From the sequence record PQ462667.1: a DNA stretch of 64,000 bases. One strand, given 5' to 3'. Positions 25,574 to 37,920 of this stretch are shown in pieces. The notes beneath the pieces were generated by a model. The model saw only the letters and a list, made by a program, of their open reading frames with translations. It had not been told where the DNA came from and ran no database searches. The stretch's first letter is position 1; each line of letters starts with the position of its first letter. This DNA is from Escherichia phage HMD-P3. Position numbers and translations under genes: made by a program.

Positions 25574-25741
25574 TTAATAAAGTTTAGTCACTTCATAAAC
25601 TATACTACGAGATTCTTTATTACGTTGTATTAAATTAGCATATGCTTCTTCAGCTTCATTTTTAGTATTAAAGTCTATAACGTGAGAGGTATTAGCTCTG
25701 TTTGATTGGCTATACCAGATAACTACTAGGAGTTTAAACAT
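25574..25741 (-). CDS. hypothetical small protein
   Basis: Start moved to an internal Met to avoid overlap with the tRNA 3' end. Confidence 0.35.
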   Translation of the reverse strand: MFKLLVVIWYSQSNRANTSHVIDFNTKNEAEEAYANLIQRNKESRSIVYEVTKLY

Positions 25742-25755
25742 ACTAATCCTTAAAT

Positions 25756-25842
25756 TGGTGCTGGGCACAGGATTCGAACCTGCAACGGGATTACTCCTCC
25801 TGATTACAAATCAGGTGCATTCAACCATTCTGCCAACCCAGC
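25756..25842 (-). tRNA. tRNA with long variable arm, anticodon ambiguous (loop UUUGUAA)
   Basis: Acceptor gctgggt/gcccagc, T-arm gcagg-ttcgaat-cctgt, 15-nt variable arm; UGU by standard numbering, GUA if shifted. Confidence 0.6.
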
Positions 25843-26007
25843 AGAACCCGTTATTTCAACGGGATTTCTTTTTCAATAACAGAAGACTTATCAGTCATAA
25901 CTGTCATTGCCATTTGTTGTAGAAATTCAAAGGTGAAGGCTACACGTTCTTCACCAATCTCTACTTCTACACGTTTCTTTTGTTTATCGATCTTAACTTT
26001 TAGGTTA

Positions 26008-28985: not shown

Positions 28986-29064
28986 TGGTGGGTCGCCTGG
29001 GACTCGAACCCAGAACCTTCCGATTAAAAGTCGGATGCTACTAAACCTATTGAGCTAGCAACCC
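28986..29064 (-). tRNA. tRNA-Lys (TTT)
   Basis: Anticodon arm tccga-ctTTTaa-tcgga; T-arm ctggg-ttcgagt-cccag. Confidence 0.7.
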
Positions 29065-30639: not shown

Positions 30640-30722
30640 TGGCGGGCCGTGTAGGATTCGAACCTACGTTGTCTTTCGACACGGATTAACAATCCGCCAC
30701 CAAACCGCTTGGCTAACGACCC
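30640..30722 (-). tRNA. tRNA, anticodon GTT (Asn?) with unusually long variable region
   Basis: Anticodon arm gcgga-ttGTTaa-tccgt; T-arm gtagg-ttcgaat-cctac; 83 nt. Confidence 0.5.
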
Positions 30723-31955: not shown

Positions 31956-32036
31956 TGGTGGGGGATGGAGGACTCGAACCTCCGCGTGATATACCCGGTC
32001 TACAGCCAGGCGCCGTCGCCACTGAGCCAATCCCCC
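31956..32036 (-). tRNA. tRNA-Tyr (GTA)
   Basis: Acceptor gggggat; anticodon arm cctgg-ctGTAga-ccggg; long variable arm. Confidence 0.65.
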
Positions 32037-33553: not shown

Positions 33554-33631
33554 TGGTGGCTCCCCGAGGATTCGAACCTACGTACCTTCCGGTTATGAGC
33601 CGGGTGCTCATACCATATGAGCTTGAGAACC
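33554..33631 (-). tRNA. tRNA, anticodon CAT (Met or Ile2)
   Basis: Acceptor ggttctc/gggagcc (G-U pairs), D-stem gctc/gagc, anticodon loop ctCATaa. Confidence 0.55.
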
Positions 33632-37340: not shown

Positions 37341-37844
37341 TTTAAGTATTTTTAAGAACTCTCGTAAAAACTCTTAAAAATACAGACGATACCGGGAGAG
37401 TCATAAGTCTCACTCATTAAGTATTTCAAGACAAAATACGGTAACGTCTACTATTTTCCAGTTTAAGTCAGGGTGACTTAGTGGTTATGTCCTGCGGTAT
37501 ATTGAGGACTCGGTTAGGCTCGGGGTCATGACTTCCCGCCTTTTGCTGCTACTCAACAGGAGTTATCGCGAATTACCTGTGCTATTGTGCACCATTAGTG
37601 ACATCTCTCATGCCAGCATTTCCCACTTTGTGGATAGCTTGAAAAACTACTCCGATATGGAGAAAGAACTTCACTATCCTAGAATACCTTCTAAAGTTCT
37701 TCTTTAGCCTGGACATAGTTAAATCGTAATAAAACTATTCAGCAGACTGGTTGGTTAGTCTGGAACCAACTACCGCGTGGTTTAGGCAGTGCGCAACTAA
37801 CCTCGGAAGCTTTTACTTTAAAAGCATCAGTTATCCAGTTCTTA

Positions 37845-37920
37845 CCGACCATAGGATTCGAACCTACATCTTCCACCAGTTACGGCTTGATAATACCAAT
37901 TATACTAGGACGGCAGTGTT
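37845..37920 (-). tRNA. tRNA-like element, no encoded CCA, anticodon not resolved
   Basis: T-arm gtagg-ttcgaat-cctat and 6/7-bp acceptor found; anticodon arm not convincingly foldable by hand. Confidence 0.3.

What the first reader, a model, noticed from the sequence alone, without database searches (positions are those of the whole stretch)
25756..25842. Type II tRNA whose anticodon loop reads UUUGUAA
Clean acceptor, T-arm and a 15-nt variable arm (classes Leu, Ser, Tyr), but with a perfect 5-bp anticodon stem the 7-nt loop is tttgtaa. Canonical numbering gives anticodon UGU (Thr), which never has a long variable arm. A one-position shift gives GUA (Tyr), although a separate tRNA-Tyr exists at 31956-32036. 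Either an unusual decoding tRNA or an identity-switched gene.
Basis: partly seen in the sequence, partly recalled or inferred. Interest (0 to 1): 0.45.

Follow-up and report, generated by a model that had tools for sequence, protein, structure and literature searches.

The report
Threonine tRNA with a long arm
This is a working threonine tRNA of a T5-like phage, built on the long-armed body normally seen only in serine, leucine and tyrosine tRNAs; others have already shown that this exact molecule helps phages escape a bacterial tRNA-cutting defence, and its unusual body may be part of the reason.

Summary
Window 25842->25756 (minus strand) encodes an 87-nt tRNA with a 7-bp acceptor stem, a 3-bp D stem, a 5-bp anticodon stem, the loop UUUGUAA and a 15-nt variable arm.

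It is not a shifted tRNA-Tyr or an odd decoder. It belongs to a conserved family of class II tRNA-Thr(UGU). I found members in about 99 T5-like phage records, in Aeromonas T4-like phages, in a metagenomic phage contig and in Acetobacteraceae chromosomes. Across 10 variants the cloverleaf, the variable-arm stem and the 15:48 pair all covary. G1-C72, C2-G71, U33 and the anticodon UGU never change.

Every listed bacterial ThrRS determinant is present. Key Ser and Tyr determinants are missing. The body is a mosaic: Ser-like D arm and variable arm, Thr-like acceptor and anticodon arms.

The gene is long annotated as tRNA-Thr. Phage Bas33 carries an identical copy, and a 2026 preprint reports that it strongly counteracts P2 OLD. 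It nevertheless keeps the host-like cleavage motifs of OLD and of PARIS AriB.

No paper I found mentions the long arm. Whether it shields the tRNA from these nucleases is an untested inference. The window's tRNA-Asn(GUU) also carries an extra arm.

The parts
25756..25842 (-). Class II tRNA-Thr(UGU) gene, 87 nt, with the CCA end encoded
   Evidence: ARAGORN calls Thr(tgt). Rfam tRNA scores 58.9 bits. The gene is identical to the tRNA-Thr annotated in AJ604531 and in Bas33/HildyBeyeler.
25836..25842 (-). Acceptor stem, 5' strand GCUGGGU. It pairs with 25760-25766 (GCCCAGC) to give G1-C72, C2-G71, U3-A70, G4-C69, G5-C68, G6-C67 and U7.G66
   Evidence: Sequence. G1-C72 and C2-G71 are invariant in 10 homologues, and 4 of the 7 pairs covary. 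These pairs match the bacterial Thr identity set in Table 1 of PMC9976931.
25817..25833 (-). D arm: 3-bp stem GCA/UGC and 11-nt loop GAAUGGUUGAA (A14, A15, G18G19)
   Evidence: 16 of 17 positions are identical to the D arm of phage tRNA-Ser(UGA) genes. Of 110 viral tRNAs carrying this D-arm motif, 73 are Ser(tga).
25799..25815 (-). Anticodon arm: stem CCUGA/UCAGG and loop UUUGUAA. The anticodon UGU is at 25806-25808
   Evidence: 14 of 17 positions match E. coli thrU and 15 of 17 match 76-nt phage tRNA-Thr(UGU) genes. The arm retains U36AAUC|A41 (AriB site) and CUG at 28-30 with CAG at 40-42 (P2 OLD motif).
25784..25798 (-). Variable arm AGGAGUAAUCCCGUU: 3-bp stem GGA/UCC (25795-25797 with 25788-25790), GUAA tetraloop, then 3 unpaired bases and U48
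   Evidence: ARAGORN drawing and ViennaRNA hairpin. All 3 stem pairs covary across lineages (GGA/UCC, UGG/CCA, GAC/GUC, CC/GG), always closing a GNRA-type tetraloop. The A15-U48 pair changes to G15-C48 in other lineages.
25767..25783 (-). T arm GCAGG UUCGAAU CCUGU, with G49.U65
   Evidence: The T loop is invariant and 2 stem pairs covary.
25759..25759 (-). Discriminator base A73
   Evidence: Invariant in all homologues.
25574..25741 (-). Small ORF (55 aa, MFKLLVV...) that sits with the class II tRNA in the cassette replacing T5's 75-nt tRNA-Thr. Function unknown; its link to the tRNA is positional only
   Evidence: Matches phrog_15108, unknown function. Also annotated next to the tRNA in AJ604531 and in Bas33.

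Best explanation
This is a functional phage tRNA-Thr(UGU) that reads ACA (and ACG by wobble). It differs from ordinary tRNA-Thr in having a class II body: a 3-bp D stem, an 11-nt Ser-type D loop, and a short variable arm (3-bp stem plus a GUAA tetraloop).

Charging (inferred, not shown): host ThrRS should charge it through G1-C72, C2-G71, G4-C69, G5-C68, G35 and U36. A73, C2-G71 and the short variable stem should keep SerRS away. G35 should keep TyrRS away.

Origin: T5-like phages carry this gene as one of two alternative cassettes at the same locus; T5 itself has a 75-nt type I tRNA-Thr there. The gene belongs to an older class II tRNA-Thr lineage that also occurs in Acetobacteraceae chromosomes and in Aeromonas phages.

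Role: it supplies ACA decoding during infection, in particular when OLD-family Toprim nucleases (P2 OLD, PARIS AriB) destroy the host tRNA-Thr(UGU). Rescue by the identical Bas33 tRNA is reported in the literature. The idea that the class II body, rather than the anticodon stem, makes it nuclease-resistant is my inference.
For: Structure:
- ARAGORN, Rfam and covariation all support the cloverleaf.

Identity:
- All bacterial Thr determinants are present. The Ser determinants G73 and G2-C71 are absent, and C2-G71 is listed as an anti-determinant for SerRS. The Tyr determinants G34 and U35 are absent.
- G1-C72, C2-G71 and UGU are invariant in 10 variants from four lineages.

Genomic context:
- The locus is syntenic with T5's tRNA-Thr(UGU) and has homologous flanks.
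- It is the only tRNA-Thr in the window.
- ACA makes up 23% of Thr codons in the window's long ORFs.

Experimental evidence:
- GenBank AJ604531 notes that the CUA-anticodon derivative is an effective amber suppressor, so the body is expressed, processed and used by ribosomes.
- Bas33 is HildyBeyeler, and its sole tRNA-Thr is 87/87 identical to this one.
- Plasmid-borne Bas33 tRNA-Thr(UGU) gave strong counter-defence against P2 OLD. T5's gave only partial rescue and E. coli's gave none.
- Bas33 needs only added tRNA-Lys(UUU) to escape PARIS, although PARIS also cleaves host tRNA-Thr(UGU).

Bacterial copies:
- They sit in conserved housekeeping synteny next to ribF, cytochrome b561 and moeA.
Against: - No aminoacylation data exist for this tRNA.
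- Home-made isotype profiles score its body higher as Ser (33.9 to 44.8 bits) than as type I Thr (29.7 bits; 19.0 with the anticodon masked).
- It has A73 and an A15-U48 pair, two of the E. coli LeuRS determinants.
- Effective amber suppression after replacing the Thr anticodon shows that some synthetase can charge the body without G35 and U36. T5's type I tRNA-Thr did not behave this way.
- The rescue experiments used overexpression and did not identify the inserted amino acid.
- The anticodon stem keeps both the AriB site and the OLD CNG pseudo-palindrome, with a full 5-bp stem. By the published rules this predicts sensitivity, not resistance.
Confidence: 0.82

Rival explanations
1. The long variable arm and Ser-type D arm are a neutral inheritance from an old class II tRNA-Thr lineage. 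Any nuclease resistance then comes from small anticodon-arm differences (C27-G43 instead of A27-U43; U32 instead of C32) or simply from dosage. This rivals only the inferred 'shield' step, not the tRNA-Thr assignment.
For: - The same architecture exists in Acetobacteraceae chromosomal genes in a housekeeping context, where no phage arms race is needed to explain it.
- Many ordinary 76-nt phage tRNA-Thr(UGU) genes also keep host-like stems.
- The class II relatives in PX29 and L024 do have altered stems.
Against: - The C27-G43 pair strengthens the stem, whereas published resistance needs a shortened stem together with an altered CNG motif.
- The identical Bas33 tRNA rescues better than T5's stem-mutated type I tRNA.
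- AriB is reported to need contacts outside the anticodon arm, including D-loop U16-U17.
- A second AriB target isoacceptor, Asn(GUU), independently carries an inserted arm while keeping the host stem.
Confidence: 0.5
2. It is a mistranslating class II tRNA: LeuRS, SerRS or TyrRS charges the body irrespective of the anticodon, so ACA is read as Leu, Ser or Tyr. Nematode nev-tRNAs and bacterial allo-tRNAs work this way.
For: - The body is class II and has A73 plus A15-U48, both LeuRS determinants.
- Profile scoring places the body closest to Ser.
- The CUA-anticodon derivative is an effective suppressor, so charging can proceed without the Thr anticodon.
- nev-tRNAs all carry A73 and are leucylated.
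Against: - The complete Thr acceptor and anticodon determinant set is present and invariant.
- C2-G71 is an anti-determinant for SerRS and G73 is missing.
- The variable stem has only 3 bp, against 5 to 7 bp in the Ser relatives.
- The D loop lacks the A20a listed among the essential Leu D-loop elements.
- It is the phage's only ACA reader, and bacteria carry it in core chromosomal contexts.
- It functionally replaces tRNA-Thr(UGU) in OLD rescue.
Confidence: 0.07
3. It acts mainly as a decoy or competitive inhibitor of tRNA nucleases, because it displays the host cleavage motifs, and not as a translational adaptor.
For: - It retains U36AAUC|A41 and the CUG/CAG motifs.
- The PARIS authors raise competition by overexpressed viral tRNAs as a possibility.
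Against: - The CCA end is encoded and the identity elements are intact and conserved.
- The suppressor derivative works in translation.
- For the type I phage tRNA-Thr genes tested, the host tRNA was still degraded, so rescue worked by replacement and not by inhibition.
- Bacterial homologues sit in housekeeping contexts.
Confidence: 0.05
4. It is a tRNA-Tyr read in a shifted register (G34 U35 A36 taken from UUUGUAA), or otherwise an unconventional decoder.
For: GUA does occur one position downstream in the loop, and bacterial tRNA-Tyr is class II with A73.
Against: - The loop has exactly 7 nt on a 5-bp stem, with U33 and A37 invariant.
- Homologues have CUUGUAA, identical to E. coli thrU.
- The same UUUGUAA loop occurs in ordinary 76-nt tRNA-Thr(UGU) genes.
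- C2-G71 and the anticodon arm are Thr-like.
- A bona fide tRNA-Tyr is present at 31956-32036.
- The tRNA substitutes for tRNA-Thr(UGU) in rescue assays.
Confidence: 0.02

Closest known systems
Canonical bacterial and phage tRNA-Thr(UGU) (E. coli thrU; the 75-nt T5 tRNA-Thr at the syntenic locus)
   Same: - Same anticodon, with U33 and A37A38.
- Anticodon stem CUGA/UCAG as in thrU.
- G1-C72, C2-G71 and A73.
- Same genomic slot as in T5.
- Same role as an ACA reader and OLD/PARIS counter-defence tRNA.
   Different: - It has a 15-nt variable arm instead of 5 nt.
- It has a 3-bp D stem with an 11-nt Ser-type D loop.
- Unlike T5's version (GUUGC/GCAUC), it keeps the host-like nuclease motifs in the anticodon stem.
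Bacterial and phage class II tRNAs, especially phage tRNA-Ser(UGA)
   Same: - The D arm is 16/17 identical.
- A variable stem-loop is present.
- The Ser determinants C11-G24, C72, R4-Y69 and G30-C40 are retained.
- The UGU anticodon is one substitution away from UGA.
   Different: - It has C2-G71 and A73 where Ser has G2-C71 and G73.
- The variable stem is 3 bp against 5 to 7 bp.
- The acceptor and anticodon arms are Thr-like.
Non-canonical V-arm tRNAs: nematode nev-tRNAs (PMC3333845) and bacterial allo-tRNAs (PMC5389517)
   Same: These are also class II bodies carrying an anticodon that is not Leu, Ser or Tyr.
   Different: - Those keep the Leu or Ser identity of the body (A73 with Leu elements; G73/U73 with a long arm), so they mistranslate.
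- allo-tRNAs also have 8/4 or 9/3 acceptor/T geometry.
- Here the geometry is the standard 7/5 and the acceptor-stem identity elements agree with the anticodon.
Phage anti-defence tRNAs (T5 tRNA-Lys/Thr/Asn against PARIS AriB; phage tRNA-Thr(UGU) against P2 OLD)
   Same: - It is a phage-encoded copy of the isoacceptor that the nuclease destroys.
- The identical Bas33 tRNA rescues OLD-sensitive phages, and Bas33 needs no extra tRNA-Thr under PARIS.
   Different: The described resistant tRNAs carry substitutions at or near the cleavage site, or a shortened anticodon stem. This one has neither, so its resistance, if direct, needs another explanation.

Membership tests
tRNA (Rfam RF00005) | Cloverleaf with 7-bp acceptor stem, 5-bp T stem, UUCGAAU-type T loop, G18G19, U8, A14, U33 and a 7-nt anticodon loop, scoring above the family's gathering score | tested here: met
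   58.9 bits against a gathering score of 29. ARAGORN cloverleaf. 99.2% of cells paired and 14 pairs with compensatory changes.
Class II (long variable arm) tRNA | Variable region of at least 10 nt that forms its own stem-loop | tested here: met
   The region is 15 nt, with stem GGA/UCC and loop GUAA. All 3 stem pairs covary across lineages.
Class II (long variable arm) tRNA | 3-bp D stem with an enlarged D loop, as in bacterial Ser, Leu and Tyr tRNAs | tested here: met
   Stem GCA/UGC with an 11-nt loop, invariant in 10 homologues.
Bacterial tRNA-Thr identity (ThrRS substrate) | Acceptor-stem determinants G1-C72, C2-G71, G4-C69 and G5-C68 | tested here: met
   All four pairs are present. The determinant list comes from PMC9976931 Table 1. 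Pairs 1-72 and 2-71 are invariant in the family.
Bacterial tRNA-Thr identity (ThrRS substrate) | Anticodon determinants G35 and U36 at canonical loop positions | tested here: met
   Loop U32 U33 U34 G35 U36 A37 A38. Invariant in the family.
Bacterial tRNA-Thr identity (ThrRS substrate) | Actual threonylation by ThrRS | not testable with these tools
   Only indirect evidence exists: the identical Bas33 tRNA replaces host tRNA-Thr(UGU) in OLD rescue. For a type I phage tRNA-Thr, rescue required both charging and ACA decoding.
Bacterial tRNA-Tyr | G34 and U35 together with A73 | tested here: not met
   A73 is present, but positions 34 and 35 are U and G.
Bacterial tRNA-Ser | G2-C71 and G73 together with a long variable arm | tested here: not met
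   The tRNA has C2-G71 (listed as an anti-determinant for SerRS) and A73. Its variable stem is 3 bp, against 5 to 7 bp in the 73 Ser(UGA) relatives.
Bacterial tRNA-Leu | A73, A15-U48, G18G19 and A20a in the D loop | tested here: inconclusive
   A73, A15-U48 and G18G19 are present. A20a, listed as essential, is absent, since the D loop is GAAUGGUUGAA. The Leu profile score is low, 12 bits. Leucylation itself was not tested.
Mistranslating V-arm tRNAs (nev-tRNA / allo-tRNA) | Body identity (Leu or Ser) that disagrees with the anticodon; for allo-tRNAs also 8/4 or 9/3 geometry | tested here: not met
   The acceptor identity elements agree with the anticodon, and the geometry is 7/5.
Phage nuclease-evading (anti-defence) tRNA | Phage copy of the targeted isoacceptor that restores infection or translation when the defence is active | tested here: met
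   Met through the literature, for the identical sequence: Bas33 tRNA-Thr(UGU) against P2 OLD, with sequence identity shown.
Phage nuclease-evading (anti-defence) tRNA | Substitutions at the cleavage site, or a shortened anticodon stem, that explain the resistance | tested here: not met
   U36AAUC|A41 and CUG(28-30)/CAG(40-42) are intact, and the stem is a full 5 bp (one search compared).

The most novel reading that the evidence does not exclude
The class II body (an inserted variable arm next to the 3' strand of the anticodon stem, plus a remodelled D loop) would be a second, structural way for phage tRNAs to escape OLD-family Toprim tRNases (P2 OLD, PARIS AriB). It would differ from the published route of mutating the cleavage site.

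This would explain three things:
- This tRNA-Thr(UGU) can keep a host-identical, fully paired anticodon stem and still rescue better than T5's stem-mutated version.
- The AriB target isoacceptor Asn(GUU) has independently gained an extra arm in T5-like, Erwinia and Aeromonas phages.
- Thr, Asn, Trp and Cys tRNAs with long arms and matching identity sets recur in large virulent phages.
Probability: 0.3. Interest if true: 0.75.

Novelty: new variant of a known kind. Interest (0 to 1): 0.5.

Why it matters
Textbook rules restrict long variable arms in bacteria and their phages to the Leu, Ser, Tyr and Sec tRNAs. This family shows a conserved tRNA-Thr, translation-competent in its CUA-anticodon form, with such an arm and a full Thr identity set. 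Asn, Trp and Cys tRNAs show the same pattern. So ThrRS, and probably AsnRS, must tolerate a class II body.

It also bears on a current open question. Both the 2025 PARIS paper and the 2025 P2 OLD paper say that it is not understood how these nucleases tell target tRNAs from non-targets beyond the anticodon stem. This tRNA is a natural test case: it has a host-like target stem on a different body, it already exists on plasmids in at least one laboratory, and it is reported to rescue strongly.

A practical point follows for annotation. Tools that rely on isotype models may flag or drop this gene; many GenBank records leave it unannotated.

Tried and rejected
- Single-sequence folding does not return the cloverleaf. 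It pairs U32-A38 and U33-A37 into a 7-bp hairpin and rearranges the D and T regions (z = -2.25). I judged it uninformative and used covariation instead.
- A blastn search against 5,426 E. coli genomes found no match even at E = 10, so there is no close host donor.
- The viral scan for TGAATGCA-N5-CTTGTAA returned 34 loci, of which only 2 were tRNAs; the rest were chance matches in coding sequence.
- The U32 version of that scan found no lineage beyond the T5-like phages and the Aeromonas phages.
- A tblastx script failed because the program is not installed. I replaced it with ORF-based blastp.
- Neither the OLD paper nor the PARIS paper has supplements held as text. I therefore could not check whether the OLD tRNA library contained this tRNA, or whether E. 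coli class II tRNAs with CNG motifs are cleaved.
- I looked for linkage between the long-armed Thr and the long-armed Asn. Bas32 has a type I Thr together with a long-armed Asn, so the two cassettes are independent.
- I asked whether long-armed Thr genes always keep host-like stems. They do not: the PX29 and L024 stems differ.
- Searches for a paper describing class II tRNA-Thr found none. The library lacks most subscription journals, including the 1980s-2000s work of the Ksenzenko and Shlyapnikov groups on T5, BF23 and phage 5, so an earlier description cannot be excluded.

Full report
**What is there**

The window is a T5-like phage (Demerecviridae). Positions 25600-26000 are 100% identical to Salmonella phages HMD-P4 and HMD-7.

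The finding lies on the minus strand, running from 25842 to 25756. The 87 nt parse as:

GCUGGGU UG GCA GAAUGGUUGAA UGC A CCUGA UUUGUAA UCAGG AGGAGUAAUCCCGUU GCAGG UUCGAAU CCUGU GCCCAGC A CCA

ARAGORN calls it tRNA-Thr(tgt). It draws a 7-bp acceptor stem, a 3-bp D stem, a 5-bp anticodon stem, a 7-nt loop and a variable arm made of a 3-bp stem (GGA/UCC) closed by GUAA. The Rfam tRNA model gives 58.9 bits with an 11-nt insertion in the variable region.

It is one of 22 ARAGORN tRNAs in a minus-strand array and the only tRNA-Thr. Two further hits found only by Rfam are a CAU-anticodon tRNA and a weak tRNA-like element.

**It is a conserved family, not a one-off**

In T5-like phages:
- The identical or nearly identical gene (at least 90% identity) occurs in about 99 phage records. 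It is usually annotated tRNA-Thr and is often left unannotated.
- T5 itself, and about 310 records, carry instead a 75-nt type I tRNA-Thr(UGU).
- The two loci have homologous flanks up to a few bases from the tRNA.
- In the window, the class II tRNA plus a 168-nt small ORF (25574-25741) replaces T5's tRNA. It is a cassette exchange.

In other phages:
- Aeromonas T4-like phages PX29 and Ah1 have an 85-nt version.
- An IMG/VR contig, L024, has an 86-nt version.

In bacteria:
- Eight species (Acetobacteraceae including Roseomonas, and Rhodospirillaceae) have an 83-86-nt version.
- These copies lie in chromosomal housekeeping contexts: moeA in one species, and conserved synteny with ribF, a cytochrome b561 and a short-chain dehydrogenase in four.

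Covariation across 10 distinct sequences:
- 99.2% of cells pair, and 14 of 24 pairs show compensatory changes.
- All three variable-stem pairs covary (GGA/UCC, UGG/CCA, GAC/GUC, CC/GG), always closing a GNRA-type tetraloop.
- The tertiary 15:48 pair switches between A-U and G-C.
- Shuffled and slid controls fall far below these values.
- G1-C72, C2-G71, U33, U34-G35-U36, A37 and A38 never change.

**Which amino acid**

| Synthetase | Determinants (PMC9976931 Table 1 and text) | Status in this tRNA |
|---|---|---|
| ThrRS | G1-C72, C2-G71, G4-C69, G5-C68, G35, U36 | all present |
| SerRS | G73, G2-C71, large variable arm | A73 and C2-G71 instead (C2-G71 is a listed SerRS anti-determinant); variable stem 3 bp against 5 to 7 bp in Ser relatives |
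| TyrRS | G34, U35, A73 | only A73 present |
| LeuRS | A73, A15-U48, G18G19, A20a | A20a absent, the rest present; cannot be excluded on sequence alone |

The shifted GUA reading fails for three reasons. The STG2 and L024 homologues have CUUGUAA, identical to E. coli thrU. UUUGUAA is also the loop of many ordinary 76-nt phage tRNA-Thr(UGU) genes. The loop register is fixed by a covarying 5-bp stem.

**A mosaic body**

- The D arm matches phage tRNA-Ser(UGA) at 16 of 17 positions. In a scan of viral contigs for this D-arm motif, 73 of 110 tRNAs were Ser(tga), 17 Ser(gct), 8 Thr(tgt), 4 Cys(gca) and 2 Trp(cca).
- The anticodon arm matches E. coli thrU at 14 of 17 positions and type I phage tRNA-Thr at 15 of 17. 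The acceptor stem begins GCUGG, as tRNA-Thr genes do.
- As a rough stand-in for tRNAscan-SE isotype models, I built profile HMMs from ARAGORN-called phage and E. coli tRNAs:

| Profile | Score (bits) | Score with anticodon masked (bits) |
|---|---|---|
| Ser, sequences not selected on the D-arm motif | 33.9 | 29.8 |
| Ser, sequences with the same D-arm motif | 44.8 | 41.8 |
| Type I Thr | 29.7 | 19.0 |
| Tyr | 23.4 | 27.3 |
| Leu | 12.0 | 11.7 |

The controls (thrU, tyrU, T5 tRNA-Ser) each scored best with their own class. So the body is Ser-like and the identity elements are Thr-like. 'Identity-switched' is a fair label, but the switch predates this phage.

**Experimental evidence already on record**

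- GenBank AJ604531 (Salmonella phage 5) annotates the identical gene. Its note reads: 'codon recognized: ACA; replacement of the anticodon with CUA sequence converts this tRNA into effective amber suppressor'. The T5 record says the opposite for its type I tRNA-Thr. The body is therefore made, matured and used on ribosomes. It also shows that some synthetase can charge it without the Thr anticodon.
- From my own knowledge, not checked here: Normanly et al. 1990 found that many CUA-anticodon tRNAs, including the Thr-derived one, insert Lys or Gln. If so, the suppressor result does not define identity.
- BASEL phage Bas33 is HildyBeyeler. Its only tRNA-Thr is 87/87 identical to the window's, and it lacks tRNA-Lys(UUU).
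- Under PARIS, T7 needs added tRNA-Lys plus tRNA-Thr to be rescued, whereas Bas33 needs only tRNA-Lys.
- P2 OLD prefers tRNA-Thr(UGU). It cuts after the C of paired CNG motifs at positions 28-30 and 40-42. Resistant phage tRNAs combine an altered CNG motif with a shortened stem.
- A 2026 preprint expressed tRNA-Thr(UGU) from T4, T5, Bas32, Bas33 and HK446. Bas33's gave strong counter-defence against OLD, T5's only partial rescue, and E. coli's none.
- None of these papers mentions a variable arm. Bas32's tRNA-Thr is the ordinary 75-nt type.

**The unexplained point and the inference**

The window's tRNA has CCUGA/UCAGG. This keeps U36AAUC|A41, CUG(28-30) and CAG(40-42) on a full 5-bp stem, and its 27-43 pair is stronger than thrU's. 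By the published rules it should be a substrate, yet the identical tRNA rescues well.

The AriB study reports contacts outside the anticodon arm: D-loop U16-U17 matters, and restoring the host cleavage site in T5 tRNA-Lys did not restore cleavage. The variable arm emerges three to four nucleotides from the cut site.

I therefore infer that the class II body may itself confer resistance. This has not been tested.

Against the inference:
- Arm swaps between type I tRNAs placed OLD resistance in the anticodon arm.
- Bacterial homologues show that the architecture exists without any obvious arms race.

I put this reading at about 0.3.

**Related observations**

- The window's tRNA-Asn(GUU) at 30640-30722 (83 nt) also has an inserted arm, GUC-GAAA-GAC. 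It keeps the same anticodon-stem sequence and the U36AAUCC site reported for E. coli tRNA-Asn.
- Bas33, Bas32, an Erwinia phage and PX29 have covarying versions of this long-armed Asn, whereas T5 has a type I Asn.
- An Erwinia phage has a class II tRNA-Trp(CCA) with A1-U72, G2-C71, G3-C70, G4-C69, A9 and G73.
- Several viral contigs have class II tRNA-Cys(GCA) with U73.
- Long arms on non-canonical isotypes, with identity sets that match the anticodon, therefore recur in large virulent phages.

**Novelty and verdict**

The gene is known and annotated, and the exact molecule has been used experimentally. What appears undescribed, within the searchable literature, is that it is a class II tRNA-Thr belonging to a conserved bacterial and phage family, and that it keeps host-like nuclease motifs. 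Older subscription-journal work on T5-group tRNAs could not be searched.

The closest precedents are nev-tRNAs and allo-tRNAs. They differ because their body identity disagrees with the anticodon, so they mistranslate.

I classify the finding as a new variant of a known kind. It is of moderate interest, with a concrete and cheap experiment available.

Noticed in passing
window 30640-30722 (-): tRNA-Asn(GUU), 83 nt, also carries an inserted variable arm (GUCGAAAGACAAC: stem GUC/GAC with a GAAA loop). Its anticodon stem is GCGGA/UCCGU and keeps the U36AAUCC site reported for E. coli tRNA-Asn; position 32 is U. Bas33 (AUCC-GCAA-GGAU), Bas32, Erwinia phage pEp_SNUABM_01 and Aeromonas phage PX29 have covarying versions, whereas T5 has a type I Asn. 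Asn(GUU) is a PARIS AriB target.
   Followed up: partly
window 25574-25741 (-): A small ORF (55 aa, with a hydrophobic N-terminus) lies immediately downstream of the class II tRNA-Thr. It is part of the cassette that replaces T5's 75-nt tRNA. It matches phrog_15108, of unknown function, and is also present next to the tRNA in AJ604531 and Bas33.
   Followed up: partly
window 28986-29064 (-): tRNA-Lys(UUU) is 79 nt with an enlarged D loop. It reads U36AAUCG41, so the A41 at the AriB cut site is changed to G. T5's tRNA-Lys reads UAAACC, so this is a different solution from T5's.
   Followed up: no
window 33557-33631 (-) and 37843-37914 (-): These are two tRNA hits found by Rfam but missed by ARAGORN. 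The first has a CAU anticodon and sits where T5 annotates tRNA-Ile2(CAU). The second is a weak tRNA-like element (33.7 bits) upstream of tRNA-Arg, where T5 annotates the stable 'RNAX'.
   Followed up: partly
L004 292-378 (Erwinia phage pEp_SNUABM_01); L049, L119, L095, L088 (IMG/VR contigs): One is a class II tRNA-Trp(CCA) with A1-U72, G2-C71, G3-C70, G4-C69, A9 and G73, six of the listed bacterial Trp determinants (G5-C68 is absent). The others are class II tRNA-Cys(GCA) genes, all with U73. All use the same Ser-type D arm.
   Followed up: partly
L274, L275, L279, L285, L289, L296, L298, L301 (Acetobacteraceae / Rhodospirillaceae genomes): These genomes carry chromosomal class II tRNA-Thr(UGU) genes (variable arm UGG-GUAA-CCA) in housekeeping synteny with ribF, cytochrome b561 and moeA. 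I could not check whether they are the only ACA-reading tRNA of these bacteria.
   Followed up: partly
window 31956-32036 (-): The phage tRNA-Tyr(GUA) is only 81 nt, with a short variable region of about 10 nt and the loop CUGUAGA (G37). T5's tRNA-Tyr is 88 nt. tRNA-Tyr is the target of Retron-Eco7 and Septu.
   Followed up: no
window 25847-25863 (+): A hairpin, CCCGTT-ATTTC-AACGGG followed by a T-run on the plus strand, lies directly upstream of the tRNA inside the end of the preceding minus-strand ORF. It is conserved in T5 and looks like a terminator only on the strand opposite to the genes.
   Followed up: no
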